DNA of 64,000 nt from Intestinimonas butyriciproducens (GCF_016901775.1 NZ_JACJKW010000004.1:1-64000), one strand, 5' to 3'. Counted from the stretch's first letter, positions 1 through 55,633 are shown. Made by a program: numbers and translations. The notes: generated from the sequence alone by a model not told the origin.

Positions 1-3
1 CAT

Positions 4-157
4 GTTTTCGCTTGTCCCCTTTGCGGGACGAGAAAACGGCCATGAAATCGGTATCATAACCGCTCTGTGGTTATGATACCACAAAGCGAAGCGAAGTGGT
101 ATATTGGCCGTGTTTTCGGTTGTCCCCTTTGTGGGACGAGAAAACGGCCATGAAATC
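4..157 (+). repeat. Two direct copies (4-49 and 112-157) of a 46-bp hairpin-forming unit, GTTTTCG[C/G]TTGTCCCCTTTG[C/T]GGGACGAGAAAACGGCCATGAAATC. The 62-bp spacer contains a perfect 12-bp inverted repeat, GGTATCATAACC / GGTTATGATACC. The window starts inside copy 1, so more copies may lie upstream.
   Basis: Read directly. The two copies differ at 2 positions. Nested stems GTTTTC/GAAAAC and GTCCC/GGGAC. Lies in the 5' region of the cupin gene. Confidence 0.7.
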
Positions 158-2692: not shown

Positions 2693-2749
2693 TGGTCCCC
2701 TCCTTGCTCTTGATGAAAAAGGCCCGGTTTGCTCCGGGCCTTTCCCGTG

Positions 2750-2941
2750 TGGAAAAAGGGACAAAAGCCACTTTTTCGAGTTTTTGCAAGGGTCTGGCGG
2801 CGAGCCGCCGCTCCCATTTTTTCTTTGCTCCGGTAGGTTGTGTACGCCCGGGCAAAAAATGTTTGCCTGCGGGGTCACCCCGCCCTTGAGAAGTGTAAAA
2901 ACCGCCGCACGGGTCACCGGTTTTTACAAATTGATGAAAGA
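2750..2941 (-). repeat. Terminator-associated intergenic repeat, copy A (long form, inverted orientation).
   Basis: Homologous to copies at 12327-12514, 14204-14329, 49276-49400 and 51891-52025. Shares the 95-bp internal module with copy B. Confidence 0.8.
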
Positions 2942-2996
2942 CCGGACAAATAACCCCTCTAACCAGATCAGTTTTGGGGTAATCAGGCTTTTTTGA

Positions 2997-3863
2997 TTAT
3001 TTCTGATAATATTTGATCAGGGCCTGGGTGCCGTCATTGTCCAGCCCCATCCGGCTCATTTCCTCATACATTTTCAAAACAGAATCCAGCATGGAAAGCT
3101 CCACGCCCCACTTACCCGCTTCTTCCTCGATGATCTTCATATCCTTGATGAAGTGCTTGACGAAAAAGCCGGGGGCCAGATCCCCCTTCAGCACCCGGGG
3201 AGCCATGTTGCTCAGCTGCCAGCTGCCTGCCGCACCGGCGCCGATGGCGGTCAGCATCTTTTCCGGCTCCAGACCGGCCTTCTGGGCATAGACCAGAGCT
3301 TCGGTATAAGCGGCGGTGGCGCCGGCCACGGCAATCTGATTGGCCGCCTTGGTGTGCTGGCCAAAACCGGCCGGGCCCATGTGGACGATATTCTTGCCCA
3401 TGCATTCAAACAGGGGCAGGGCTTCCTCAAAGTCCTTCTCGTCGCCGCCCACCATAATGGACAGCGTGCCGTTGCGGGCGCCGGAATCGCCGCCGGACAC
3501 CGGAGCATCCATCACCCGCAGGCCCTTTTTCTTCCCTTCCTCATAAAGGCGCTGGGCCAGAGAGGGAGAGGATGTGGTCATATCGATGAGCAACGCCCCT
3601 TCCTTGGCGTTTTCAAAGATGCCCCCTTCTCCCAGGAACACTTCTTCCACATCCTTGGGATAACCCACCATGACAAAGACCACATCGGCCCCTTCTACCG
3701 CCTGGGCGATGGTCTCACAGGGCACCAGGCCAAACTCTTCTTTCAGAGCCTCCAGCTTGTCCGCAGAGCGGTTGTAAGCCTTCACCGGATAGCCCTTTTT
3801 GGCCAGGTGGCCCGCCTGCTGGCCCCCCATGACGCCAGTGCCGATCCATGCGATCTGTTTCAT
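2997..3863 (-). CDS. NAD(P)-dependent oxidoreductase of the 3-hydroxyisobutyrate / 2-hydroxy-3-oxopropionate (tartronate semialdehyde) reductase family.
   Basis: N-terminal Rossmann motif MKQIAWIGTGVMGG. Start ATG at 3863 with AGGAGG RBS. The ORF track begins upstream at 3971. Confidence 0.8.
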   Translation of the reverse strand: MKQIAWIGTGVMGGQQAGHLAKKGYPVKAYNRSADKLEALKEEFGLVPCETIAQAVEGADVVFVMVGYPKDVEEVFLGEGGIFENAKEGALLIDMTTSSPSLAQRLYEEGKKKGLRVMDAPVSGGDSGARNGTLSIMVGGDEKDFEEALPLFECMGKNIVHMGPAGFGQHTKAANQIAVAGATAAYTEALVYAQKAGLEPEKMLTAIGAGAAGSWQLSNMAPRVLKGDLAPGFFVKHFIKDMKIIEEEAGKWGVELSMLDSVLKMYEEMSRMGLDNDGTQALIKYYQK

Positions 3864-4065
3864 TTTGTTTCCTCCTTTTAGGGTGTTTCGGTTTGTTTCA
3901 GTATAGCATAAACCTGCCCTCCTATGCCACAAAGAACCAAAGGTTTTTTCGTCTTTTCCCATTTCCACCATCCCCCTCTTGCCAAAACAGGAGGAAATGA
4001 ATTACACTGTACTTGGCCCCTTTTCCCTAAAAAAAAGGGATAGAAACAGAGAGAGGAAGGATTTT

Positions 4066-7243: not shown

Positions 7244-9257
7244 TTATTCGTTGCCCACATACCGATAGAGCCAGCTCTTGATCTCCTTCAGGCGGCGCAG
7301 GCGGTGACGGGGCTTGCCCGAACGGGACAGCTCGTGGTTCTCCCCTTTGAAAATGCACATCCGGGAGGGAACGCCGTTGAGCTGCAAAGCGGTATACATG
7401 GAAATGCCTTCGGGCATCCAGCACCGGTAGTCCTCTGTGCTGTTGATGAAGAGGGTGGGGGTGCGGGCCTTGTCGGCAAATTTCATGGGGGACTGATCCC
7501 ACATCTTGTACATATCGGTGAAGGGCGTGGCCTGGACTTCCCGCAGGTCAAAGCTGAGGCCGATGTCGCAGGTGCCGAACAGGGTGATCCAGCTGGCGAT
7601 GGACCGCTGGGAAGCTGCTGCCTTGAACCGGTGGGTGTGGCCGATGATCCAGTTGCACATAAAGCCGCCGTAGGAGCCGCCCAGCACGCCCAGACGCTCC
7701 TTGTCGATGGCCGGGTACTTTTCCAGCACCACATCCACAAACTGCATCAGATCCTCATAATCGATGGTGCCATAGCGGCCGGCGATGTTGGCAAACTTGT
7801 CCCCCCTTCCACCGGAACCGGTGGGATTGCAGAACATGACAAAGCAGCCGTCAGAAGCCATGGTCTGCATCTGGTGGAAGAAGCAGGTGCCGAAGGTGGC
7901 CCGGGGGCCGCCGTGGATGTCCAGCATGGCGGGATAGGTCTTGCTTTCATCGTAGTCCTTGGGCAGAAGCACCCAGCCTTCGATGGTATTCCCCTCTTTG
8001 TTCACAAAGGTCAGGGGCTGGGGTGTGGCCACATATTTGCCCTTGAGAGCGTTTTTATTGAAGCCGGTGACTTTTTTCTGGCTTCCGTCCTTTTCCAGGC
8101 GGTAAACTTCCTGCAGATCGTTTCCGGCAAAGCCCACAGTGAAGATTTTGCCATCCCGGATGTCGAAAAAGTCCACCGAACAGTCTTCCCCGGTGAGCAC
8201 CTCCGGCTCTTTCCCGGGCTGCCAACGGTAGAGCACGCTGTAATGGGCCCGGGCCGAGACATAATAGAGGGCATCCTCACAGGCTTTCATGTGGATACCG
8301 CTGCCATAGCGGCAGTCGCTGCCGGGATTTCCGCCGAAGTCCTCGGTTTCGGCCACCGGCACGGCCATAACAGGCTCTCCTCCTGCAAGGGGGATGGAAT
8401 AGAGGTTTGTGCCCCCGAAGCGCATCCAATCCTCCCCGTGTTCCTCGGCGGAGAAGATCAGCTGATCGCCCACAAAGGCCAGCGAACCCAAACCGCTGAA
8501 TCGGTCGGGCCCGAACAGCTCTTTTCTTTCCCCGGTTTCCAGATCGTAGAGGTACAGGCCGGAGTGCATATTCAGCTTTTTGTCGGTAAGGGCCCCGGCA
8601 TAGGCCAGAGTCTTTCCGTCGGGGGACAGGGTGAAACCCCGGGTTTCAAACATGGGCTCGGTCACAGGCCGGAGTTTCTTCCGCTTCACATCATACAGCC
8701 ACAGCCGGTTGCGCTTTTTGTTCACAAAGCCCCGGCCGTTGAACCAGAAGGGAGCCTCGTCACATACCTGGTAGTCCTTTTCCTCCTGGTAGTCCAGAAG
8801 GGCACAGCGGCGTTTTTCCCCCTTGAGGGATTCAAAATCCGGCCTGGCGTTGTCGTGGACAGCGGTGATGAGATAGAGCCCTTCCCGCACCAGATGGGCG
8901 CTGGCTCCCTGCAAAGGCAGGCGGAAGCACTCCCGGCTTTCGCCTCCGTCCAGGGGCAGCTGGTAAAAGACGGTGAGCAGTTCTCCATTTTCCACCCGCT
9001 TTTTGTCCTTCTTTTCCCGGATGGCAGGGAAAATGACGCTTTTGTCCCCAAAGAGGGCAAAGCTGCGCACATCCCCATGGGAGGTCAGGGGCCGGGCCGC
9101 GCCGGTTTTGCAATCCACCAGATACAGGTCGGAGCGGTAGCAGTTGTCCTCCAGATCGGCCTTGGCGGCGATCACCAGGGCCCGGTCATCGGGAAGCAGC
9201 TTGAGTCCGGACAAAAATTTATAATCCTGCAAGTCTGTGTCCAGTATTCGTTCCAAG
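7244..9257 (-). CDS. S9-family serine peptidase (prolyl oligopeptidase / acylaminoacyl-peptidase-like), paralog 1.
   Basis: GGSYGGFM nucleophile motif and beta-propeller N-terminus. The TTG start at 9257 (RBS AGGAGGG) was chosen because LERILDTDL aligns with MERIQIDDF of the paralog. Confidence 0.8.
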
Positions 9258-9272
9258 AAAATCCCTCCTATC

Positions 9273-9312
9273 GCAGGGCAGCTTGCCCTCGAAAGGGGCA
9301 AGCTGCTGCGCT
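9273..9312. other. GC-rich hairpin (GCAGCTTGCCC-loop-GGGCAAGCTGC) between the GNAT and S9 genes; possible terminator or attenuator.
   Basis: Inverted repeat read directly. The T-rich run lies on the plus side only. Confidence 0.35.
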
Positions 9313-10169: not shown

Positions 10170-12167
10170 TTACTTCATGTAATGGTCAAACCAGTTTGTG
10201 ATCTCCCGCAGACGGCGCACCCGGTGCTTGGGTTTGCCGGAACGGGACAGCTCATGGTTCTCCCCGTGGAACAGGCACAGACGGGTGTCCACACCGTGCA
10301 TCCGCAGGGCGGTCATCATCTGAATGGCATCGGCCATCCAGCAGCGATAGTCCTCATCGGACTGGATGAACAAAGTGGGGGTCTTGGCCTTGTCGGCATA
10401 CTTCAGGGGAGAGTTGTTCCACATCCGGTCCATGTTGGTCCAGGGATCGGCCATCATGGCGGACAGGTTGTGGTAGTAGCCGATGTCGGTGGTCAGGCAC
10501 TTGCTCAGGTAGTTGGAGATGGAACGCTGGGAAGCCACCGCCGCAAACCGGTGGGTGTGGCCCACGATCCAGTTGGCCATAAAGCCGCCATAGGAGCCGC
10601 CGGCCATGCCCACACGCTTCTCATCGATCTGGGGATATTTTTCCAGCACCTTGTCGGTGAACTCCATCAGGTCGTTATAATCCCAGACGCCGTAGTGCTC
10701 GCCGCGGATATTGGCAAAGTCGTTGCCCTTGCCGTCGCCGCCACGGGGGTTGCAATAAAAGACGAAATAGCCCTCGTTGGCCCAGAACTGCATCTCATGG
10801 AAGAAGGTCTCGCCGTAAACCGCCTTGGGGCCGCCGTGGACATTGAGGATCGCAGGATACTTCTTGGAAGGATCGTAGTCCACCGGCTCCAGGATCCAGC
10901 CGTCGATGTCCACGCCGTCTTTATCGGTAAAGTGCATATATTTGGGCTCTACCACGCTGTGGGTCTGGAGGTATTCCTGGTTGAAGCTGGTCAGGCAGGT
11001 TTCCTCGCCGCCTTCCTTGCAGCAATAGATCTCCTGCAGGCCATTACAGCGCATACCCACATAATAGAAGGTATCGCCCACCTTCTGGAAGCAGTCCACG
11101 CTGCCGTGGACATCGGGGGAAATGGTCTTGACCTGGCCCTTTTCATCCAGCTTGCGGATGAAAGAATTGAAGCCCATGGTCTCCAGGAAGTAGAAACCGT
11201 CCTTTTCGCCCTTGTTGGAAACGCCTCCGCCATAGCGGCAGTCGCTGCCCACACTGGAGCCCAGGCTGGTGTCCAGATCGGCAAGCTCCTGCATCTTGCC
11301 GGTATTCACATCCACATTGAAGAAGATGGGATTTTCGCTGGAGCCATAGCGCTGGCCGGTGGTGGCGGCCATGAGGATGTGATCGCCTACGAAATCGGCG
11401 GCCTGGACCCGGTATTTGCCGCCCAGATCCATTTCACGGCTCTCGCCGCTCTTCAGATCATACACAAACAACCGGCTGACCTGCTCGTCCATCCACTGAT
11501 AGTCGCTGCCATAGTACAGAGCCAGACCCAGCTCCTTGCTGTATTTCAGGCCGGTGACCTGCATATAGGGGCCGGTGATGGCCTTCTGCTCATCCTTGCA
11601 GATGTCGCAGAGATAGACACGGCCGCGCTTTTTGTTGACGATGCCCTTGCCGTTGAACCAGAAGGGAAGCTCATCGAAGATCTCGTAGTCCTTTTCTTCC
11701 CGGATCTTCTCCATCATCTCTTCCTTCTCGGCCCCATCCAGACCTTCGGTGGTCATGGCATAGTTGTCATACTGGCCGATGCACAGGAATTTGCCGTCGC
11801 CCAGCACGATCAGGTTACTGGCGGGGAAAGGCAGGGCAAAATATTCCTCGGCTTCGCCGCCCTGGGTGGAGATCTTGTTGAACACGGTGTAATGGAAGCC
11901 TTCGTCGGCCATGGCCTTATATTTTCCGGTGCGGTCGCCGGGGAAGAGGATATGCTCTTCATCCAGCCAGTACAGGCTCTTTTCTGCGCCGCCGCTTGTC
12001 AGCTTGCGCACTTTTCCATTTTCCAGCAGGTGGATATGGGACACATATTTGTTGGCCTTCACCTGGGCCTGTGTGACCACAAAGGCCAGCTTCTCGCCGC
12101 TGGGGGAAGCCTGCAGCTGGGACAGCATTTTCACCTGACTGAAATCGTCGATCTGAATCCGTTCCAT
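10170..12167 (-). CDS. S9-family serine peptidase, paralog 2.
   Basis: GGSYGGFM motif. 665 aa. GGAGG RBS. Confidence 0.85.
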   Translation of the reverse strand: MERIQIDDFSQVKMLSQLQASPSGEKLAFVVTQAQVKANKYVSHIHLLENGKVRKLTSGGAEKSLYWLDEEHILFPGDRTGKYKAMADEGFHYTVFNKISTQGGEAEEYFALPFPASNLIVLGDGKFLCIGQYDNYAMTTEGLDGAEKEEMMEKIREEKDYEIFDELPFWFNGKGIVNKKRGRVYLCDICKDEQKAITGPYMQVTGLKYSKELGLALYYGSDYQWMDEQVSRLFVYDLKSGESREMDLGGKYRVQAADFVGDHILMAATTGQRYGSSENPIFFNVDVNTGKMQELADLDTSLGSSVGSDCRYGGGVSNKGEKDGFYFLETMGFNSFIRKLDEKGQVKTISPDVHGSVDCFQKVGDTFYYVGMRCNGLQEIYCCKEGGEETCLTSFNQEYLQTHSVVEPKYMHFTDKDGVDIDGWILEPVDYDPSKKYPAILNVHGGPKAVYGETFFHEMQFWANEGYFVFYCNPRGGDGKGNDFANIRGEHYGVWDYNDLMEFTDKVLEKYPQIDEKRVGMAGGSYGGFMANWIVGHTHRFAAVASQRSISNYLSKCLTTDIGYYHNLSAMMADPWTNMDRMWNNSPLKYADKAKTPTLFIQSDEDYRCWMADAIQMMTALRMHGVDTRLCLFHGENHELSRSGKPKHRVRRLREITNWFDHYMK

Positions 12168-12249
12168 GGATCATCGTCCTCCTTCACAAAAATCGGTGTG
12201 ATTTTACCGCTGTTGTCTGTACACTATTATACCTTTCTCTTTCCCCAAA

Positions 12250-12276
12250 GACAAGGCGGGATTTTACTGCCTTGTC
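12250..12276. repeat. 27-bp hairpin GACAAGGCGGGATTTTACTGCCTTGTC; left direct repeat flanking repeat copy B.
   Basis: Identical copy at 12523-12549. Confidence 0.8.
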
Positions 12277-12326
12277 ACAAACTGCCCGAAACCTATCCTG
12301 CAACAAGAGATGGTTTACTCTATTCT

Positions 12327-12514
12327 TCATCCATCCGCAAAAAGCCGCGACCTGTGCGTGGCTTTTTGCACCTATCAAGGGCGGGGTGACCCCGCAGGCA
12401 AACATTCTTTGCCCGGGCGTACACAACCTACCGGAGCAAAGAAAAAATGGGAGCGGCGGCTCGCCGCCAGACCCTTGCAAAGACTCGAAAAAGTGGCTTC
12501 CGCCACTTTTTCGA
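12327..12514 (+). repeat. Terminator-associated intergenic repeat, copy B (long form).
   Basis: Contains the 5' hairpin GCAAAAAGCC...GGCTTTTTGC and the 3' hairpin GAAAAAGTGGC...GCCACTTTTTC. Shares a 95-bp internal module with copy A. Confidence 0.8.
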
Positions 12515-12522
12515 AACGCTGA

Positions 12523-12549
12523 GACAAGGCGGGATTTTACTGCCTTGTC
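12523..12549. repeat. Right copy of the 27-bp hairpin direct repeat flanking copy B.
   Basis: Identical to 12250-12276. Overlaps the stop codon of the serine hydrolase. Confidence 0.8.
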
Positions 12550-13930
12550 AGGATGCGTCCGCCGGTGCGCACGCCCCAGACCCCTCGTCCTTCTTCCCGG
12601 AGAAGCAGGATATCGCTCTGGGAAAATTCCCCGGGCAGGATGATCAGATCGTGCCCGGCCATGATGAACTGCCGTTCCTTGCCGCCCATGGTCAGGTGGA
12701 GATCCCCGTTTTCCCAGGTGAAGGTGACCTCGTTGCCTTCGGCACTCGCAAACTTGCCCAGGCAGCTCTTCTTTTCCTCTTCGCTCCAGCCGGCGTCCTG
12801 CCAGGTTTTCATGGGCGCGGGCACAGCGGCTCCGGTGACCCAGCGAAGGGCTTCCTCGGCCACCCGGCTGACCGGCACGCCGCTGGTGTTGCACAGCACC
12901 ACAACGCCGGCTTCCAGCTCAGGAGAGAAGGCAAAATGGCTGGAGATGCCGGTCATGCTGCCACCGTGGCCCACCATGCGCACCCCTTCCAGGTCACTCA
13001 TGGCCATGCCGTAGCCATACCACTGGCCGTAGCGGTAATGCTGCCGGGGCTTCATCATCTCCCGGATGCCATAGGGGCTGAGCAGGCGGCCATGCTCCCC
13101 TTTGCCCTCGTTGAGATACATCTGCACATATTTCTTCATGCTGCCCAGGCTGGCCTTGACGGCGCCGCCGCCCATGAGCACAAAAGCGTTGTCATAGTAA
13201 TCCCGGCACCAGTGACGCTTGCCGTCTTTGTGGAAATAGAGCTTTGTGCTGTTAGGGTCCTGGGCCGGGGCGATAAACAGGCCGGTGGCCCGGTCCATCC
13301 CCAGGGGGGCGAACACATTCTTTTCCAGATAGTCCTGGAAGGAATTTTCCCCGCCATAGCGGCGGATGATCTCAGACAGCAGGCCGTAGCTGTCGTTGCT
13401 GTAACTCATGTACTCCCCGGGCAGACCGGTGCGGGCTTCTTCTTCGTCCAAACCCTTGCACACCCGGCGGCAGCCCTCCATGGCCAGACCCGGATGGGGG
13501 CCGATCTCGGCTTTGCCCTCCTGCCAGATGCCCATTGACCGGGCCACCTCTTCCACCAGCATCCGCCGCTTGGGAAGAAATCCCCCGGCGTGGCTGAGCA
13601 GATGGGCCACCGTCACCGGCTGGGCGGCGTGGGCGTTGTGGAACTCCGGCAGATACCGGCTCACCGGCCCCCATAGGTCGATCACTCCCTTCTCCGCCAG
13701 CTGCATGATGCTCAGGGCCGTAAAGGACTTGGACACCGACGCCAGACCAAAAATGGTGTTTTCGTCAATGACCGTCTGATTTTCCCCATCCCGGAAGCCA
13801 AAAAATTTCTGATACAGGGTCACATTCTTGTCGACCACCGCCATTGCCAGACCGGCAGCCTCATAATGGGCCATCATCTTTTCGATCCACTGTTCCAGAG
13901 GGCGGATGCCCTCCATAGTGCCTTTGTTCA
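12537..13930 (-). CDS. Serine hydrolase of the beta-lactamase / D-aminopeptidase family (class C-like).
   Basis: SxxK motif (ASVSKSF). About 464 aa. Start assigned to the GTG at 13930 with AAAGGAG RBS. The ORF track begins upstream at 13973. Confidence 0.7.
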
Positions 13931-14038
13931 CCTGAAAAACTCCTTTCCCAAGGCCGGGGCCTTTTCTGTCCACATTGTATCACGAAAGAGGCCCTCTGTG
14001 GGATTTTTTCTTCAAAACTTCTTGGACGCAAAGAAAAA

Positions 14039-14098
14039 GCAAATGCCCCCATTTGGTAGCAAATGCCCCCGTTTGGTAGCAAATGCCTCCATTTGGGG
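14039..14098. repeat. Three tandem 20-bp units (GCAAATGCCCCCATTTGGTA), each containing the inverted repeat CAAATG(N5)CATTTG.
   Basis: Read directly. About 110-170 bp upstream of the serine hydrolase start. Followed by a purine-rich tract at 14100-14200. Confidence 0.75.
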
Positions 14099-14203
14099 GC
14101 CAAAGAAAAGGAAAAGACAAAGGCAAAAACAAAAACGAAGACGAAGAAAAAAGAGAGGGGGAGGGTGAAGAAAAAGAAAAAAGGTCTCCCTTCCCTATCC
14201 CTA

Positions 14204-14329
14204 ATCAATCTGCAAAAAGCCGGGACCTGTGCGTGGCTTTTTGCACCTCTCAAGGGGCAAGTGTGCGCCAAAGGCGTGCATGCAGGCCCTTGCAAAAACT
14301 CGAAAAAGTGGCTTTTGCCACTTTTTCGA
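14204..14329 (+). repeat. Terminator-associated intergenic repeat, copy C (short form).
   Basis: Same end hairpins as copy B. Downstream of the MATE gene. Confidence 0.8.
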
Positions 14330-14428
14330 CACCCCTCCCAGGACGAAAACCACGCCTGGGAGGGAGTACACTGATGGCATAGGCCGGAGCCTTCCCAGCG
14401 GGAGCCATGGGAAAAGGCCCGGGAAAAC

Positions 14429-29270: not shown

Positions 29271-29275
29271 ACACA

Positions 29276-29301
29276 AAAAGCGCCCTTTGGGCGCTTTTTG
29301 T
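29276..29301. terminator. Bidirectional terminator AAAAAGCGCCCtttGGGCGCTTTTT (left copy of a duplicated 25-mer).
   Basis: Identical 25-mer at 29946-29972. Confidence 0.75.
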
Positions 29302-29498
29302 TATTGCTCCACTGTAAAAATTTCTTCAATGGACACCCCAAACACCTTGGCAATGTTCCAGGCCAGCACCAAAGAAGGGTTATATCGTCCCTTCTCCAGA
29401 TTTCCTATGGTCTCCCGCCGGACTCCCACCAGTTTTGCCAGTTCTTCCTGCTTCATGTTGTGACGGGCCCGATATTCTTTGATCCTATTTCTGATCAC
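29301..29498 (-). CDS. XRE-family (Cro/C1-type) HTH transcriptional regulator, about 65 aa.
   Basis: HTH motif [27 protein letters not shown] start at 29498 with GGGGG RBS. An alternative ATG lies at 29528. Confidence 0.75.
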
Positions 29499-29856
29499 AT
29501 TCCAGCCCCCATCTCTCTTTGAATCCATAATAGGCAGCAGACAAGGCGTACACCACCACAGACACGATCCATCCCCAAGCCAGGCCGGTGATCAGCGCCT
29601 TGTTCTCTTTCTGGGAAGCCAGGAAGAAGGCGCCCAACGAAACCAGAGCCATCGCAATCATACCGCAATAAAAGGCTCGGGAAGCCGACCGGTCCATATA
29701 TTCTTCCAACATCTCATCTGACTGAACAAAGAAATATTCAAAATTCACCGCAAAGGCAAAAAAAGATAAAAAAGCTTTTGACTCGGTAAACAAACCAATC
29801 AATCCCAGAAGAGAAAGCAACCCCATCATGCCATACAGTATGCGTCTTGATTTCAT
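29485..29856 (-). CDS. DUF3796-like small membrane protein; partner of the XRE regulator.
   Basis: 123 aa, 4 TM segments. ATG at 29856 with AGGAGG RBS. Overlaps the XRE start by 14 nt. The ORF track begins upstream at 29913. Confidence 0.65.
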
Positions 29857-29874
29857 AGAAATGCCTCCTTTGAT

Positions 29875-29915
29875 ATGTGGTATATTTCTATCTTTATGAT
29901 ATAAATATACCACAT
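29875..29915. promoter_or_regulatory. Perfect 11-bp inverted repeat ATGTGGTATAT(N19)ATATACCACAT in the AT-rich promoter region of the DUF3796-XRE pair; candidate operator.
   Basis: Read directly. 19-59 nt upstream of the DUF3796 start. Confidence 0.5.
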
Positions 29916-29945
29916 TTATTTCTTATGATCAAGACTATATTGGTC

Positions 29946-29974
29946 CTTATGAAAAAAAGCGCCCTTTGGGCGCT
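29946..29974. terminator. Second copy of the terminator AAAAAGCGCCCtttGGGCGCTTTTT (right flank of the XRE cassette, downstream of the EamA gene).
   Basis: Identical 25-mer to 29277-29301. Confidence 0.7.
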
Positions 29975-29977
29975 TTT

Positions 29978-30826
29978 TTATATTTCCTTTTTCAGACTGC
30001 CCCAGATGGCGCAGGCAAAGACCAGGCTGCCCCCCAGCACTTCCCGGAGAGATGGGATCTCTCTCAAAAACAAAGCCGCCAGCAAAATGCCGTATACCGG
30101 CTCCAGGCAGGAAACCACGCTGGCCGTCTGGGCCCGGATGGTGCGCAGGCTGCCGATAAAGAGGGTATGGGACAGAGCGGTGAACACCACTCCCAGCAGC
30201 AAAAGTCCGCCCCAATCGGAAAGAGAGAGGGCAGGACGCAGCCACAAAAAGCAAGGAGTTAAAATCACCGCTGCCCACATCTGTTCCCAGAAGGAGACCA
30301 TGGCCGCGGGAAAGTTTCCCACCCATTTCTGATTGAACAGCCCCAGCAGAGCATAGCTGAAACCGGACAAAAGCCCCCACAAGGCCCCCAGCCACAGCGT
30401 TCCCTCCCCTTCCAGAGGCGTGGCCAGCAAAATGCCGCCGAAGGCCACAAAAGCCAGCACCACATCCCCTCCCCGGGGCTTTTTCCCGGTAAAGAGGGGC
30501 TCCAGAAAGGTGACGAATAGGGGGAAGGCCGAAAAAGAGATCAGACCCATGGCCACAGTGGACACCTGAATGGCCTGATAAAAAGTGCTCCAGTGAAAGG
30601 CCAGCAATGCGCCCAAGGCAGCCAGGGCCGCCTTGGTGCGCCCCGGCACAGCCCAGGGGTTTTCTCCCCGGATCTTCAGCCAAAGAAGGAGAGACAGGGC
30701 GGAAAAAACCACCCTGCCCCAGGTGATGATCAGGGAATGCTGGCGTATCACCTTGCCGAACAGCCCTGAAAGGCCAAAGAGCAGCACCGCCATATGGAGC
30801 TGCCAGAGCCCCGGCCGTTTTTTCAT
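29978..30826 (-). CDS. EamA/DMT-family transporter.
   Basis: 282 aa, 10 TM segments, two EamA repeats. Confidence 0.8.
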   Translation of the reverse strand: MKKRPGLWQLHMAVLLFGLSGLFGKVIRQHSLIITWGRVVFSALSLLLWLKIRGENPWAVPGRTKAALAALGALLAFHWSTFYQAIQVSTVAMGLISFSAFPLFVTFLEPLFTGKKPRGGDVVLAFVAFGGILLATPLEGEGTLWLGALWGLLSGFSYALLGLFNQKWVGNFPAAMVSFWEQMWAAVILTPCFLWLRPALSLSDWGGLLLLGVVFTALSHTLFIGSLRTIRAQTASVVSCLEPVYGILLAALFLREIPSLREVLGGSLVFACAIWGSLKKEI

Positions 30827-47773: not shown

Positions 47774-47803
47774 ATTATATCCTGTTTCTCCCCACATTGC
47801 AAC
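47774..47803 (-). promoter_or_regulatory. Sigma-A promoter for gltX (-35 TTGCAA, 18-nt spacer, -10 TATAAT).
   Basis: Read on the minus strand, about 50 nt upstream of the gltX ATG. Confidence 0.6.
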
Positions 47804-47804
47804 C

Positions 47805-47906
47805 GGGCGGAGTGCCTCCGCTGCCATACTGCGCAGCGCCAAGTCTTGTGAAGGAAACTTCCTTGCTTCACGCTGCGCGGCGGCATTTGCTGCACATGGC
47901 TTCACC
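47805..47906. repeat. Structured direct repeat, unit 1 (about 102 bp), upstream of the gltX promoter.
   Basis: About 85% identical to unit 2 at 47984-48085. Contains hairpin GGCGGAGTGCCTCCGC and a long imperfect hairpin with an inner stem AAGGAA/TTCCTT. Confidence 0.75.
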
Positions 47907-47983
47907 TCAACTAGAGCGGCGTACCACCGGGGGCATACTGGCCCTCCCCGAACTCCAGTGGCACAGGAGCCTGTCATTTGGTC

Positions 47984-48085
47984 GGGCAGAGTGCCTCCGC
48001 TGTCACACTGCGCAGCGCCAAGTCTTGTGGAGAAAACTTCTCTATATCACGCTGCGCAGCGGCATTTGCTGCACAAGGTTTTACC
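47984..48085. repeat. Structured direct repeat, unit 2; the inner stem is changed to GAGAA/TTCTC (compensatory).
   Basis: Begins about 38 nt after the ribokinase stop. Confidence 0.75.
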
Positions 48086-48122
48086 TTAGTGCAAGCTGCT
48101 GCACCTCCCAGCCAGGGGAGGG

Positions 48123-49184: not shown

Positions 49185-49203
49185 GAAACCATAAAAATCC
49201 CCC
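49185..49203. repeat. 19-bp direct repeat AAATCCCCCGGCGCTGCAA, left flank of repeat copy D.
   Basis: Second copy at 49406-49424, where it forms the 5' half of the gap terminator hairpin. Confidence 0.7.
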
Positions 49204-49275
49204 GGCGCTGCAAGATATAGCAAAGAGAAAACCGATCACAGAATAATACAGTATCAGGCGCCCTTTTGCCCTTTT

Positions 49276-49400
49276 TTCAATCTGCAAAAAGCGGCGACCT
49301 GTGCGTCGGTTTTTGCACCTCTCAAGAGACCGGTGTGCGCCAAGGGCGTGCGCCGTGCCTCTTGCAAAAACTGGAAAAAGCGGCTAAGCCGCTTTTTCGA
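49276..49400 (+). repeat. Terminator-associated intergenic repeat, copy D (short form). Its end hairpins carry covarying substitutions.
   Basis: The 3' hairpin GAAAAAGCGGC..GCCGCTTTTTC differs from GAAAAAGTGGC..GCCACTTTTTC of the other copies by a compensatory pair. Confidence 0.8.
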
Positions 49401-49405
49401 AAGGC

Positions 49406-49424
49406 AAATCCCCCGGCGCTGCAA
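49406..49424. repeat. Right copy of the 19-bp direct repeat flanking copy D.
   Basis: Identical to 49185-49203. Confidence 0.7.
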
Positions 49425-49451
49425 TGTGCGCCGGGGGATTGAAAATGGCTC

Positions 49452-50565
<1,114 letters not shown>

Positions 50566-50720: not shown

Positions 50721-51860
50721 TTGGAAAATACCGCTCTGGGGGACATGACCTGGTTCCCCGCCGCCGATGACTATCTGATGATCTGCAGCCCGTCGGGCCG
50801 CATCCTCTTTGTCACAAGCAGCCTGCGTTTTCAGCTGGAAGAGGACCTGGTAGGCCGCTCTCTCAACGACATTTTCCCCGATTCCCTGGCCGCTCAGATC
50901 GTCACCCTGGCCCATGAGGGCCAGAGCCATTCCTTTCACACAAAGCTCCAGGGCAAAGCCGTCCGGTGCAGTATGACCCCCAAAGAGGGGAATATGCTCA
51001 TCACCGTCTTTTTCGCCCAGGAAAACCATCCCCCGGCCATGGCCCTCAGCGCCGCCGAGCTGCTCAGCCGGGAAATCAGCAGCAGCCTGGGCACCATGTT
51101 TGCCGCCTGGGATGCCCTGCCCCCCGCCCAGGACCAAAAAAGCCAATACGCCAAAAGCGTGCTGCGCCAAGGGATGTACCGGCTGATGCGCATGGGCCGC
51201 AATCTGCTGGACTGCGCCCGGGCCGAAAGCGGCCAGCTGGAGCTGAATGTGCGCCAGAGTGATCTGTGCCAGCTTGTGCGGCAGCTGTGCCAGCGGGTAG
51301 AGCCCATGGCCGAAGAAGTGGGCATTCCCTTTTCCTGGGACTGCCCGGAGGAACCCCTGTTCTGCCCCTTCGACCGGGAGCGGGTGGAGCGGGTGATCCT
51401 GGGTCTGATTTCCAATTCCATGAAATACACCCGGCAGAAAAACCAGATGCGGCTGGTGCTCACCAAACGGGAGGACAACGCCGTGATCATCCTGGCCGAC
51501 CGGGGCCGGGGCATTCCCGCTTCGGTGCTGCCCCATCTTTTCAGCCGTCCCCCCGAATCCTCCCTGTCCCGGGGACTGATGGTGGGAGGGGCCGGCTACA
51601 GCCTGATGCTGGCCCGGGCGGTGATGCTGCTCCACGGCGGCACCTGCGTCATTTCCAGCGTTCCCGATGAGGGCACCACCGTCACCCTGTCCCTGCCCCT
51701 GCACCCTTCCACCCCCTATCTGTCCCTGGGCGCTCCGCCCCCGGACTATGCCAGCGGCTTCGACCATGTGCTGCTGGAACTCTCCACCGCCTTGCCCGCT
51801 TCTTTCTATAAAGAGGAGCCCAAAAAATCAAAGTCCTATCCTGCTTCCCCGGAGCAATAA
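50721..51860 (+). CDS. Orphan cytoplasmic histidine-kinase-like protein (PAS-like N-terminus, DHp-like region, intact HATPase_c). The H-box His appears to be replaced by Arg.
   Basis: TTG start with AAGGAGG RBS. N box NSMKYT, G1 box DRGRGIP, G2 box GGAGYSLMLA. The DHp region reads LSREISSSLGTM where SHELRTPL is expected. Confidence 0.7.
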   Translation: MENTALGDMTWFPAADDYLMICSPSGRILFVTSSLRFQLEEDLVGRSLNDIFPDSLAAQIVTLAHEGQSHSFHTKLQGKAVRCSMTPKEGNMLITVFFAQENHPPAMALSAAELLSREISSSLGTMFAAWDALPPAQDQKSQYAKSVLRQGMYRLMRMGRNLLDCARAESGQLELNVRQSDLCQLVRQLCQRVEPMAEEVGIPFSWDCPEEPLFCPFDRERVERVILGLISNSMKYTRQKNQMRLVLTKREDNAVIILADRGRGIPASVLPHLFSRPPESSLSRGLMVGGAGYSLMLARAVMLLHGGTCVISSVPDEGTTVTLSLPLHPSTPYLSLGAPPPDYASGFDHVLLELSTALPASFYKEEPKKSKSYPASPEQ

Positions 51861-51887
51861 AAAAAGAGCCTTTCGGCTCTTTTTTTA
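51859..51887. terminator. Terminator AAAAAAAGAGCCtttcGGCTCTTTTTTT (left copy of a duplicated 34-bp segment).
   Basis: The same sequence recurs at 52066-52102 on the other side of repeat copy E. Confidence 0.75.
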
Positions 51888-51890
51888 ACA

Positions 51891-52025
51891 TGTCGAAAAA
51901 GTGGCCTGGGCCACTTTTTCGAGTTTTGCAAGAAGCTGCATGCACGCCTGTGGCGCACACTGGCTTCTTGATCGGTGCAAAAAGCCACGCACAGGTCGCG
52001 GCTTTTTGCAGATTGATGAAAGATA
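51891..52025 (-). repeat. Terminator-associated intergenic repeat, copy E (short form, inverted).
   Basis: Reverse complement matches copies C and D end to end. Confidence 0.8.
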
Positions 52026-52072
52026 AAACAAAAGAATTTCTCACATGATATGTTTTTTCATCGTCTACGCAA

Positions 52073-52101
52073 TAAAAAAGAGCCTTTCGGCTCTTTTTTT
52101 A
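52073..52101. terminator. Second copy of terminator AAAAAAGAGCCtttcGGCTCTTTTTTT (tatD side).
   Basis: Direct duplicate of 51859-51887. Confidence 0.75.
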
Positions 52102-52106
52102 TTGCG

Positions 52107-52874
52107 TTATGGGATATTGAAAAATCGCTTGCCGTTTTCCAGGGTGATCCGGGCCGCTTCCTCCGTGGAGATGCCCTTGATGTTGCCGATGCACTCGGCC
52201 ACCTTCCACACCTTGGAGGAATCGTTCCGCTCCCGGCGGAAGGGCTCCGGGGTGAGGTAGGGGGAGTCGGTTTCGATCATCACCCGGTCCAGGGGCAGCC
52301 ACTGGAGCACTTCCAGAGCCCGGCGGGCGTTTTTATAGGTGATGACTCCAGTGAAGGAGAGCATCCAGCCCATCTTCACCAAAGTTTTGGCATCCTCCAG
52401 ACTGCCGGAATAGCAGTGGAACACACCTCGCACCCCCGGGTGCTCCCGCACCATCTCCATGCTGTCTCCATGGGCTTCCCGGTCGTGCACCACCACCGGA
52501 AGCCCCAGCTTTTCCGCCAGCTCCATCTGGAGGGCAAAGACTTTCTTCTGGTGCTCTTTGGGGGGATTGTCCTCCCAGTGATAGTCCAGGCCGATCTCTC
52601 CGATGGCCTTGACTTTTTCGTCCCGGGCCAGCTTTTCCAGCTCGTCCATCTGGCTCTCTTCAAAATCCCCGCAGTCCGAAGGGTGAATGCCCACGGCGGC
52701 ATAGACAAAGGGGAAGGTATGGGCCAGTTCCACCGCCTTGCGGGAGGAGGGCAGGTCACAGCCCGGGTTGACGATCAGATCCACGCCCTGCTGGGGCAAA
52801 CCGGCCAGCACCTCCAGCCGGTCTTTGTTGAAGGCTCCCGAGTCGTAGTGGGCGTGGGTATCAAAGACCCCCAT
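52107..52874 (-). CDS. tatD: TatD-family metal-dependent hydrolase (DNase).
   Basis: N-terminal HAHxD and typical TatD motifs. Its start overlaps the metG stop. Confidence 0.85.
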   Translation of the reverse strand: MGVFDTHAHYDSGAFNKDRLEVLAGLPQQGVDLIVNPGCDLPSSRKAVELAHTFPFVYAAVGIHPSDCGDFEESQMDELEKLARDEKVKAIGEIGLDYHWEDNPPKEHQKKVFALQMELAEKLGLPVVVHDREAHGDSMEMVREHPGVRGVFHCYSGSLEDAKTLVKMGWMLSFTGVITYKNARRALEVLQWLPLDRVMIETDSPYLTPEPFRRERNDSSKVWKVAECIGNIKGISTEEAARITLENGKRFFNIP

Positions 52875-54940: not shown

Positions 54941-54969
54941 AAAAAAACACAAGCGGCGTGACGCCGCTG
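54941..54969 (-). terminator. Intrinsic terminator inside the metG upstream region (AGCGGCGucacGCCGCU plus U-run), followed by a candidate promoter TTGTGT ... TATGAT.
   Basis: Read on the minus strand. Could be the end of the upstream gene or a leader attenuator. Confidence 0.5.
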
Positions 54970-54970
54970 T

Positions 54971-55024
54971 CATACTTTCTTTGCCTTGGTGAACACAACC
55001 GTCCCTGGCTCTATTGCACAGCGG
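54971..55024. repeat. 54-bp direct repeat, unit 1 (CATACTTTCTTTGCCTTGGTGAACACAACCGTCCCTGGCTCTATTGCACAGCGG).
   Basis: 48 of 54 positions identical to unit 2 at 55066-55119. Between them lies the palindrome GCGGGGgCGCCCCGC. Confidence 0.75.
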
Positions 55025-55065
55025 GGGAGCGCAGTACGGGTGCAGCGTCAGCGGGGCGCCCCCGC

Positions 55066-55119
55066 GGCCATACTTTCTTGGCCCTGGTGAACACAACTGT
55101 CCCTGGCTCTACCGCACAG
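55066..55119. repeat. 54-bp direct repeat, unit 2; overlaps the last codons of the upstream hypothetical gene.
   Basis: See unit 1. Confidence 0.75.
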
Positions 55120-55633
55120 CGGAAACGCCTTTTTGGCCGATGGCTTTTCCCAAGGCAAGCAGGCTTTCCAGAAGCTCCGGGTTACGGCTCTGATAAAAGT
55201 CCTCCCATTCCGTTTCCCACTGGCCCTCTGTGTTTTTCAGCTTCCACACCTTCACCTGTGGCCGCTCCGCCCCGATCAAGGACAGCGCCCAGGCGTCCTT
55301 TCCCTGGCGCATCACAAAGCGAGTAGGGAAATACATCTGTCCCACTTCGGTCATCCGATGGGGCCAGGTGCCCAAAGAAAGATACAGATCCAGCAGATCG
55401 TCATACCGAAGATCTTCTGCCAGCGCCCGGATGGTGCCCTGGGCCCCTTTCCCCGAAACCGGCACGGTGATTCCTCTGTCCACATAGACATACTGAGTTT
55501 CCTGGAAAGGGGAAAGCCCCAGCTTTTCCGTGGGGCCGCCTTCTGCCCAGGAAAACAGGCCTACCACTCCCAGAATTATCGCTGTCAGCAGTACAAGACG
55601 CACAAAAAACCGTTTTCCAATATAGCGGATCAT
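55109..55633 (-). CDS. Hypothetical membrane-anchored protein (174 aa).
   Basis: N-terminal TM segment. No family recognised. Confidence 0.55.
   Translation of the reverse strand: MIRYIGKRFFVRLVLLTAIILGVVGLFSWAEGGPTEKLGLSPFQETQYVYVDRGITVPVSGKGAQGTIRALAEDLRYDDLLDLYLSLGTWPHRMTEVGQMYFPTRFVMRQGKDAWALSLIGAERPQVKVWKLKNTEGQWETEWEDFYQSRNPELLESLLALGKAIGQKGVSAVR

What the first reader, a model, noticed from the sequence alone, without database searches (positions are those of the whole stretch)
12250..12549. Previously undescribed-looking family of terminator-associated intergenic repeats (5 copies in 64 kb)
Five homologous elements sit at 2750-2941 (inverted), 12327-12514, 14204-14329, 49276-49400 and 51891-52025 (inverted). 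All share a 5' module ATCAATCTGCAAAAAGCCgcgacctgtgcgtGGCTTTTTGCACCTCTCAAG and a 3' module CTTGCAAAAACTCGAAAAAGTGGCttttGCCACTTTTTCGA. Each module is a hairpin flanked by A- and T-runs, that is, a bidirectional intrinsic terminator. The central segment is variable: a short form in copies C, D and E, and a long form in A and B sharing a 95-bp GC-rich insert. Stems show compensatory changes: GCAAAAAGCC/GGCTTTTTGC versus GTAAAAACCG/CGGTTTTTAC in copy A, and GTGGC/GCCAC versus GCGGC/GCCGC in copy D. This argues for selection on structure rather than neutral decay. Every copy lies at the 3' end of a gene (the garR-like gene, the serine hydrolase, the MATE gene, gap, and the HK-like/tatD pair), in either orientation. 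Six-frame ORFs across them (LQKLEKVAF..., GVTPPL...) are repeat artefacts. The density suggests a genome-wide REP/MITE-like family that supplies transcription terminators.
Basis: seen in the sequence. Interest (0 to 1): 0.85.

Follow-up and report, generated by a model that had tools for sequence, protein, structure and literature searches.

The report
Terminator-targeting MITE of IS1182 family
The five repeats are copies of a small non-coding transposon (a MITE), probably moved by an IS1182-type transposase, that inserts at transcription-terminator hairpins and duplicates the whole hairpin. This explains why the copies sit at gene ends; they use existing terminators and do not supply them.

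Summary
All five repeats are real, and a profile search finds exactly five in the window. Each is about 50 bp longer at the 5' end and 7 bp longer at the 3' end than reported. Full copies run from CAGACTGTCGAAAAACC to CTTTTTCGACACGCTC, which is an imperfect 15-bp terminal inverted repeat. They come in short (~183 bp), medium (~205 bp) and long (~244 bp) forms. In 36 of 60 copies from the window and three related Oscillospiraceae genomes, the element is flanked by a direct duplication of an entire terminator-like hairpin (20-41 bp). Closely related metagenome contigs have empty sites with a single hairpin. The same end sequence bounds 1.5-kb elements that encode an IS1182-family transposase (NCBIfam 410 bits, cut-off 270). 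Relatives of that transposase, retrieved by protein similarity alone, carry the same ends, and four of nine show whole-hairpin duplications. So this is a MITE family of a hairpin-targeting IS1182 subgroup. The link to terminators comes from target choice, not from supplying terminators. The internal hairpins are conserved, with compensatory changes, but their role is untested. No transposase was found in the ~0.5 Mb of host DNA sampled. This is a new member of a known kind and of moderate interest.

The parts
2743..2986 (-). MITE copy A. Long form, 244 bp, with a diverged 5' inverted repeat (CTGATTACCCCAAAAC). It lies 10 nt after the stop codon of the garR-like gene (2997..3971 -).
   Evidence: (nhmmer E 2.8e-30)
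2716..2742 (-). Terminator hairpin GGCCCGGagcaaaCCGGGCC plus a T run, abutting the 3' end of copy A. No second copy of this hairpin lies on the other side.
12249..12277 (.). Left copy of the target-site duplication of copy B: AGACAAGGCGGGATTTTACTGCCTTGTCA, the terminator hairpin of the hydrolase gene 12537..13973 (-).
12278..12521 (+). MITE copy B. Long form, 244 bp. Orthologous copies at the same locus in AM07-15 (L014) and the JAHZHY MAG (L035) are short forms.
12278..12292 (+). 5' terminal inverted repeat of copy B (CAAACTGCCCGAAAC; family consensus CAGACTGTCGAAAAA).
12337..12369 (+). Internal hairpin 1 (A5, a 6-bp G+C stem, a 7-nt loop, T5). Terminator-like in both directions and carries compensatory changes across copies.
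12379..12475 (+). 97-bp segment that replaces the central hairpin in long forms. It is related to free-standing repeats at 47800-48091 and 54948-55135.
12485..12514 (+). Internal hairpin 3 (TCGAAAAAGTGGC / GCCACTTTTTCGA). Its 3' arm overlaps the 3' inverted repeat.
12507..12521 (+). 3' terminal inverted repeat of copy B (TTTTTCGAAACGCTG; family consensus TTTTTCGACACGCTC).
12522..12550 (.). Right copy of the target-site duplication of copy B, 29/29 identical to 12249-12277. It overlaps the stop codon of the hydrolase gene.
14159..14333 (+). MITE copy C. Short form, truncated at the 5' end (profile positions 27-181), directly followed by the MatE gene's terminator hairpin (14334-14363). The orthologous site in AM07-15 has unrelated sequence in its place.
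49195..49213 (.). Partial left copy of the duplication for copy D (AAATCCCCCGGCGCTGCAA: left arm and loop of the gap terminator only).
49214..49405 (+). MITE copy D. Short form with a degenerate 5' inverted repeat, downstream of gap (49452..50495 -). Absent from L001, L002 and L010.
49406..49440 (.). Complete gap terminator hairpin to the right of copy D. Its first 19 nt repeat 49195-49213.
51855..51885 (.). First copy of the duplicated bidirectional terminator at site E (CAATAAAAAAAGAGCCTTTCGGCTCTTTTTT), serving the HATPase gene (50721..51860 +).
51886..52067 (-). MITE copy E. Short form, 182 bp, between the convergent HATPase (+) and tatD (52107..52874 -) genes. The site is empty in L002. 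A remnant of the element remains in AM07-15 (L036) and in the JAHZHY MAG (L017).
52070..52101 (.). Second copy of the duplicated terminator at site E.

Best explanation
[quoted passage not shown] They are non-coding, about 183 bp (short form), about 205 bp (medium) or about 244 bp (long). [quoted passage not shown]

The same ends bound 1.5-kb insertion sequences that encode an IS1182-family DDE transposase. The MITE is most likely moved in trans by such an enzyme (inferred).

The target is a hairpin-forming palindrome rather than a particular sequence. In practice this means intrinsic terminators. The two transposon ends are joined to the two strands at the outer feet of the hairpin, usually 1-3 bp outside the G+C stem. 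Gap repair then copies the whole hairpin to both sides, giving hairpin-MITE-hairpin. The joining chemistry is inferred; the product is observed.

This explains why every copy sits just after a gene, in either orientation. It also explains why insertions are tolerated: each flanking gene still meets a complete terminator, and no coding sequence is hit.

The long direct repeats also allow clean loss of the element (inferred).

The three internal hairpins, two of them A-run/stem/T-run, are kept by compensatory changes. They probably limit read-through or serve transposase binding (untested).
For: Ends and duplications
- The boundaries and inverted repeats come from 59 distinct full copies.
- 36 of 60 copies have a direct repeat scoring at least 14 that abuts both ends, against 3 of 180 mismatched-flank controls.
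- In the 24 cleanest cases the repeat is 20-41 bp and folds as a hairpin.

Empty sites
- L002, 98% identical to the window, has one hairpin at both site E and site D. L001 and L010 have one hairpin at site D.

Spread
- There are 65 strict-pattern copies in three related genomes: 32 in Ruminococcaceae bacterium AM07-15, 17 in one MAG and 16 in another.
- Many contigs break inside the element.
- Tandem and nested copies occur (L030, L038, L078).

Link to IS1182
- An exact scan for the 17-nt end in metagenomes returned dozens of other MITE-like pairs, 25 of 57 with hairpin duplications.
- The same scan returned four elements of about 1.52 kb with perfect inverted ends.
- Their 471-aa ORF scores 410.6 bits against NF033551, the IS1182 family transposase model (cut-off 270). 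It also matches Pfam DUF772 and DDE_Tnp_1_6.
- Nine relatives of that transposase were retrieved by protein similarity alone, at 47-59% identity. They carry the same end consensus, CAG(A/C)CTGT(C/A)(G/A)A(A/C)AAA. Four of them (L246, L247, L248, L253) are flanked by a duplicated whole hairpin of 22-25 bp.

Literature
- IS1272 and TnSha1, both IS1182 family, insert into terminator hairpins without primary-sequence specificity (PMC4923244; PMC5678879).
- The model in PMC5678879 predicts whole stem-loop duplication when the transposon ends attack the 5' feet of the stem-loop.

Structure
- 98.2% of cells in the four helices are paired. Six pairs carry double changes (39 cells; 0 of 500 shuffles reach this). 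Slid-partner controls give 33-57% pairing.
- Folding z-scores are -8.2 (copy E as RNA) and -6.9 (copy B as DNA).
Against: - No IS1182-type transposase was found in the window or in the ~0.5 Mb sampled from the three host genomes. A resident partner is therefore not shown.
- The MITE shares only the ~17-nt ends with the IS elements, not subterminal sequence.
- About a third of the MITE copies have one flanking hairpin or two different ones instead of a duplication. So do all four metagenome IS copies and three or four of the nine IMG/VR IS copies. One such case (L183 against L192) looks like recombination or chimeric assembly across copies, but this is not settled.
- Site E is 'empty' in a 98%-identical contig, yet more distant genomes hold a remnant of the element. 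Some empty sites may therefore be secondary losses.
- No transposition, transcription or termination data exist.
Confidence: 0.85

Rival explanations
1. This is a host-selected REP-like repeat family whose job is to provide bidirectional intrinsic terminators at gene ends.
For: Hairpins 1 and 3 have the A-run/stem/T-run layout, and some are flagged by the terminator scan. All window copies are at gene 3' ends. The stems are kept by compensatory changes.
Against: Empty sites already hold a complete terminator, and the insertion merely duplicates it. The element has inverted-repeat ends shared with a transposase-encoding IS. It varies in presence between 98%-identical sequences. Its orientation relative to the upstream gene is mixed among the five copies. 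Truncated and decayed copies persist (C and D; the remnant at site E in L036).
Confidence: 0.06
2. The copies are a family of structured small-RNA genes, or cis-regulatory RNAs, that were duplicated around the genome.
For: Folding is strong (z = -8.2). Covariation is present. G.U pairs are the consensus in helices 1 and 3, which favours one strand.
Against: There is no Rfam match, even at E up to 1. No conserved promoter is seen. Copies lie in both orientations relative to neighbouring genes. Inverted-repeat ends, flanking duplications and empty sites indicate DNA-level mobility. Compensatory change in DNA palindromes can also arise from intrastrand templated repair without selection on RNA (established knowledge; not tested here).
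Confidence: 0.03
3. The hairpin duplications are not made by a transposase. They would arise from a general hairpin-associated recombination or replication-slippage process that inserts various DNA segments at terminators in this lineage.
For: A 654-bp cassette carrying an XRE gene and a DUF3796 gene (29300-29955) has no recognisable MITE-type ends. It is nonetheless flanked by a duplicated terminator, and its site is empty in two related genomes.
Against: The MITE junctions fall at fixed positions relative to conserved inverted repeats in dozens of copies. The same signature flanks IS1182-family elements that encode a DDE transposase. Published IS1182-family members target hairpins.
Confidence: 0.05

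Closest known systems
IS1272 / TnSha1 (IS1182 family, staphylococci)
   Same: A DDE transposase of the same family (NF033551) is associated with the same ends. Inverted repeats are about 16 bp. The target is a hairpin or terminator with no primary-sequence consensus. Insertions lie just downstream of genes and in either orientation (PMC4923244, PMC5678879).
   Different: IS1272 and TnSha1 delete or replace part of the hairpin and make no target duplication. The element here duplicates the whole hairpin (20-41 bp). It is a non-coding ~183-bp derivative, not an autonomous IS, and its hosts are gut Oscillospiraceae.
MITEPye1 of Paracoccus yeei (IS1182-derived MITE)
   Same: A non-autonomous element whose inverted repeats match an IS1182-family IS. 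It is intergenic and folds into stem-loops (PMC11578231).
   Different: MITEPye1 has 4-bp direct repeats, 1-3 copies per genome and no reported hairpin targeting. The family here has at least 16-32 copies per genome and hairpin-length duplications.
[quoted passage not shown]
   Same: A small AT-run-bounded repeat that looks like a terminator, is strongly enriched close to the 3' ends of convergent genes, and was suspected of acting as a terminator (PMC3049150).
   Different: No target duplication, empty site or partner IS could be established for SPRITE. Its inverted repeats are only AAAA/TTTT, and there is no sequence similarity to the present family. Here the ends, the duplication and a partner IS family are all defined.
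REP/BIME elements and the IS that insert into them
   Same: Interspersed extragenic palindromes at gene ends. There is also precedent for structure- or palindrome-directed insertion (my own knowledge of IS1397 and IS110-family examples; not tested here).
   Different: REPs are 20-40-nt units linked to RAYT (HUH) transposases, and they lack inverted-repeat ends and target duplications. Here the palindromes are the targets, and the repeat itself is a classical inverted-repeat element of DDE type.

Membership tests
MITE (miniature inverted-repeat transposable element) | Small size (under about 300 bp) and no transposase gene | tested here: met
   Copies are 168-244 bp. The only ORFs across them are repeat read-throughs.
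MITE (miniature inverted-repeat transposable element) | Terminal inverted repeats | tested here: met
MITE (miniature inverted-repeat transposable element) | Target-site duplication flanking the element | tested here: met
   36 of 60 copies against 3 of 180 controls. Length is 20-41 bp, equal to the whole hairpin, which is unusually long and variable.
MITE (miniature inverted-repeat transposable element) | Many dispersed copies, with presence/absence polymorphism and empty sites | tested here: met
   65 copies in three genomes. Empty sites for D and E.
MITE (miniature inverted-repeat transposable element) | A cognate autonomous IS with matching ends | tested here: met
   Four 1.52-kb elements with the identical 17-nt end, and nine protein-retrieved relatives with the same end consensus. 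None was found in the same host genome.
IS1182-family-dependent element | The partner transposase reaches the family's curated threshold | tested here: met
   NF033551 at 410.6 bits against a cut-off of 270, plus PF05598 and PF13751.
IS1182-family-dependent element | Hairpin or palindrome target preference, as reported for IS1272 and for some other family members | tested here: met
   Hairpins abut the ends of MITE and IS copies. Literature.
IS1182-family-dependent element | Actual mobilisation of the MITE by that transposase | not testable with these tools
   This needs a transposition assay. It is inferred only from the shared ends and the shared insertion signature.
IS1182-family-dependent element | The transposase gene is present in the MITE-bearing genome | tested here: inconclusive
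   tblastn found no homologue in the window or in the ~0.5 Mb of loci from the three genomes.
Intrinsic (rho-independent) terminator | A G+C-rich stem-loop followed by a U tract that stops RNA polymerase | tested here: inconclusive
   Hairpins 1 and 3 have A5/T5-flanked stems of 5-6 G+C pairs. The consensus scan flags module 3 in C and D and module 1 in D only. There are no 3'-end data.
REP/BIME | A 20-40-nt imperfect palindrome unit without inverted-repeat ends or target duplication, associated with RAYT | tested here: not met
   The unit is 183-244 bp, with inverted repeats and flanking duplications. The partner is a DDE transposase, not an HUH one.
Any Rfam RNA family | A covariance-model match at the gathering score | tested here: not met
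   Only two tRNAs were found in the window. The best sub-threshold hits on copy B have E 0.11-0.44 and are to unrelated families.

The most novel reading that the evidence does not exclude
This clostridial IS1182 subgroup and its MITEs may be the first documented large natural series of structure-directed DDE transposition in which the target duplication equals the entire palindrome. This outcome (5'-feet attack) was only hypothesised for IS1272. It would imply that the transposase recognises an extruded hairpin or cruciform in vivo. It would also describe a terminator-preserving, cleanly reversible safe-harbour strategy. A possible further point is that the same machinery moves cargo cassettes, such as the XRE/DUF3796 insertion at 29300-29955.
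Probability: 0.3. Interest if true: 0.55.

Novelty: new member of a known kind. Interest (0 to 1): 0.4.

Why it matters
- Genome annotation. These elements create spurious ORFs, break short-read assemblies, and double the terminators at dozens of gene ends in a group of uncultured gut Oscillospiraceae.
- Mobile-DNA biology. The IS1182 family's mechanism is listed as unknown in a 2018 review. Only hairpin deletion by IS1272 has been described in the papers I could search. A series of MITE and IS insertions with hairpin-length duplications gives a ready natural data set for where the transposase cuts relative to the stem. It also gives a defined substrate (17-nt ends plus any terminator) for experiments.
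- Gene expression. Each insertion separates one hairpin copy from its U tract and adds two terminator-like hairpins. This could alter 3' UTRs and read-through at many loci.

Tried and rejected
- Rfam at gathering score on the whole window, and at E up to 1 on copy B and on the 54.9-kb repeats: nothing relevant.
- BLAST of the consensus against plasmids and phages: no match in plasmids, and only a 32-nt hairpin match in phages.
- Scan of IMG/VR with the module-3 hairpin pattern: no hits.
- Search for an autonomous partner in the window and the genome loci, by inverted-repeat pairs, by hairpin duplications spaced 1-5 kb, and by tblastn with the transposase: none found.
Alignment of many copies showed it is simply the less conserved 5' part of the element, ending in the inverted repeat.
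- I considered an IS6-type partner because the ends resemble GGCACTGTTGCAAA (from memory). I dropped this once the ends were found on IS1182-family elements.
- I considered group II intron, IS200/IS605 and IS110 modes of terminator or palindrome targeting. These were rejected because those elements lack inverted-repeat ends and target duplications (my own knowledge).
- I ran no further search on locating the host's own transposase. Its output carries no organism link.

Full report
**Observation**

The 3' module pattern matches 7 times (both strands of the palindromes) and the 5' module 4 times, against 0.00 expected in shuffles. A profile HMM built later from 43 copies finds exactly these five in the 64-kb window, plus one weak hit to an ordinary terminator at 729-762. 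The long-form inserts of A and B are 99% identical. Every copy lies just beyond a 3' end.

**True anatomy**

A strict 3'-module pattern scanned over one genome per species returned 68 loci. Sixty-five are real and come from three related genomes:
- Ruminococcaceae bacterium AM07-15 (an isolate, Oscillospiraceae): 32
- MAG ERR527183_bin.45: 17
- MAG HRGM_Genome_3370: 16

The other three are chance hits in unrelated phyla. The window is about 94% identical to these genomes.

It is a less conserved part of the element and ends in CAGACTGTCGAAAAACC. The two ends form an imperfect 15-bp inverted repeat, 12 of 15 in the consensus.

Sizes cluster at about 183 bp (40 copies), about 205 bp (a longer central hairpin) and about 244 bp (the 97-bp central segment).

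Corrected window coordinates:
- A: 2743-2986 (-)
- B: 12278-12521 (+)
- C: about 14159-14333 (+), truncated at the 5' end
- D: about 49214-49405 (+), with a degenerate 5' end
- E: 51886-52067 (-)

**The key feature: duplicated terminators**

Immediately outside the two ends, most copies carry the same hairpin twice. Around copy B, AGACAAGGCGGGATTTTACTGCCTTGTCA occurs at 12249-12277 and again at 12522-12550. Around copy E, a bidirectional terminator occurs at 51855-51885 and at 52070-52101.

Over 60 copies, 36 have a flanking direct repeat scoring at least 14. When left and right flanks of different copies are paired as a control, 3 of 180 do, and those three are orthologous loci. In the 24 cleanest cases the repeat is 20-41 bp and folds as a hairpin. 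It comprises the whole G+C stem and usually 1-3 of the adjoining A/T pairs. The left copy ends exactly at CAGACTG, and the right copy begins right after CACGCTC.

Empty sites confirm that this is a duplication made on insertion. Metagenome contig L002 is 98% identical to the window across tatD-HATPase-gap. It has a single hairpin at site E and a single hairpin at site D. L001 and L010 also lack D. Many metagenome contigs end inside the element, as expected of a multicopy repeat. Tandem or nested copies occur, with a second element inserted at the duplicated hairpin or in module 3 of an earlier copy (L030, L038, L078).

**What moves it**

The literature pointed to the IS1182 family. IS1272 and its derivative TnSha1 insert into terminator hairpins with no primary-sequence preference, but they delete the hairpin and make no duplication (PMC4923244; PMC5678879). 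The second paper's model predicts whole stem-loop duplication if the transposon ends attack the 5' feet of the stem-loop.

I tested this prediction in three steps.
   - Most hold other MITE-like elements (148-375 bp) with the same ends and different interiors; 25 of 57 have hairpin duplications.
   - Four loci hold 1.51-1.55-kb elements with perfect inverted ends and a ~470-aa ORF.
2. That ORF scores 410.6 bits against NCBIfam NF033551, 'IS1182 family transposase' (cut-off 270). It also has the Pfam DUF772 and DDE_Tnp_1_6 domains.
3. Relatives of this transposase were then retrieved from IMG/VR by protein similarity alone, so independently of the ends, at 47-59% identity.
   - They carry the same end consensus: CAGACTGTCAAAAAAGG, CAGCCTGTCAAAAAAGT, CAGACTGTCGAAAAAGTCC, CAGACTGTAGACAAACTCG.
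   - Four of nine (L246, L247, L248, L253) are flanked by a duplicated whole hairpin of 22-25 bp.

Two viral-contig MITEs (L094, L117) show the same signature. Hairpin duplication is therefore a property of this IS1182 subgroup and of the MITEs that share its ends.

**Mechanism**

Shown:
- the element's ends
- the hairpin-length duplications
- the empty sites
- the shared ends with IS1182-family elements

Inferred:
- A transposase of that subgroup binds the ends and joins them to the two strands at the outer feet of an extruded hairpin or cruciform.
- Repair of the resulting gaps copies the palindrome to both sides.

The variable duplication length follows the length of each palindrome, which argues for recognition of structure rather than sequence. 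Because each flank keeps its native A or T tract next to one hairpin copy, both neighbouring genes still meet a full terminator. This fits the tolerance of dozens of insertions.

The long direct repeats should also allow precise deletion. Site E is empty in 98%-identical L002, yet a remnant of the element's 5' end remains in the more distant AM07-15 and HRGM genomes. This pattern is compatible with such loss, but it does not prove it.

**Internal hairpins**

RNAalifold and explicit pair counting on 43 short copies give four helices with 98.2% of cells paired. Six pairs carry changes on both sides, for example G-C to C-G at columns 87/105 in 11 copies and C-G to G-C at 89/103 in 15. That makes 39 such cells, which 0 of 500 shuffles reach. 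Slid-partner controls give 33-57% pairing. Copy E folds at -74.3 kcal/mol as RNA (z = -8.2), and copy B at -58.9 kcal/mol as DNA (z = -6.9).

- The double changes trace to a few subfamily-defining events.
- In DNA palindromes, intrastrand templated repair can produce 'compensatory' changes without selection (my own knowledge; not tested).

Consensus G.U pairs in helices 1 and 3 favour the element's sense strand. However, the five window copies face their upstream genes in both orientations. Whether hairpins 1 and 3 terminate transcription is untested. A crude consensus scan flags some of them.

**Loose ends**

- About a third of the MITE copies have one flanking hairpin or two different ones. 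So do all four metagenome IS copies and three or four of the nine IMG/VR IS copies.
- L183 and L192 share an identical left flank and element but have different right flanks. This points to recombination or chimeric assembly across copies in at least some cases. Insertion between two neighbouring hairpins is another possibility.
- Orthologous copies differ in their central segment. B is long in the window but short in L014 and L035. A is long in the window but medium in L029. So the centre is exchanged in place.
A resident partner therefore remains to be shown.

**Comparison and verdict**

The family meets every testable criterion of a MITE. Its ends tie it to a known IS family whose members are known to target hairpins.

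It differs from IS1272/TnSha1 in duplicating the hairpin rather than deleting it. It differs from the one IS1182-derived MITE I found described (MITEPye1; 4-bp repeats) in its target and in its duplication length. It resembles pneumococcal SPRITE in location and appearance, but SPRITE has no defined ends, duplication or partner. It is not a REP and not an Rfam family.

From memory, ISfinder lists direct repeats of 0-60 bp for the IS1182 family, so specialists may already know long duplications there. I could not check this. I file the finding as a new member of a known kind. It has one feature of mechanistic interest, structure-measured target duplications, and is of moderate interest overall.

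Noticed in passing
window 29275-29978: A 654-bp insertion (29300-29955) carries an XRE-type HTH gene (29301..29528 -) and a DUF3796 membrane-protein gene (29485..29913 -). It is flanked by a duplicated bidirectional terminator, AAAAAGCGCCCTTTGGGCGCTTTTT (29275-29299 and 29954-29978). The site holds a single hairpin in AM07-15 (L054) and in a related MAG (L072). No MITE-type inverted repeats were found at its ends. It shows the same hairpin-duplication signature with a gene cargo.
   Followed up: partly
window 47800-48091, 54948-55135, and inside MITE copies A (2789-2885) and B (12379-12475): A second repeat family starts with a hairpin GCGGnGTGnCnCCGC followed by CA(T/A)AC. There are two 179-bp tandem units near 47.9 kb and two units near 55.0 kb. 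The 97-bp central segment of long-form MITEs is related to them at 79% over about 48 nt. There is no Rfam match.
   Followed up: partly
window 3-49 and 111-157: Two 96%-identical 47-nt units contain a hairpin (GTTTTCG..GTCCC..GGGAC..GAAAAC) and are spaced 108 bp apart at the very edge of the window. With only two units visible, the nature of the repeat is unknown.
   Followed up: no
window 14038-14097: Three tandem 20-nt units (AGCAAATGCCCCCATTTGGT) lie in the A-rich spacer just upstream of MITE copy C. AM07-15 has different sequence here.
   Followed up: no
window 7244-9301 and 10170-12167 (- strand): Two paralogous prolyl-oligopeptidase (S9) genes lie 2920 bp apart and are about 72-80% identical in stretches. 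This is a tandem gene duplication next to MITE copy B.
   Followed up: no
L036:3700-3790 and L017:2835-2925 (orthologues of window site E): AM07-15 and the HRGM MAG keep only about 35 nt of the MITE's 5' end at site E. This is a 165-bp deletion relative to the window. So the 'empty' allele in the closer contig L002 may be a precise secondary loss through the long duplication.
   Followed up: partly
L183:1897-2607 versus L192:1346-2056: Two metagenome contigs share an identical left flank and a MITE of a sister family, but diverge completely right after its 3' end. One of them also has a 70-bp extra hairpin inside the element. This is evidence for recombination or chimeric assembly across copies, and for internal hairpin gain.
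   Followed up: partly
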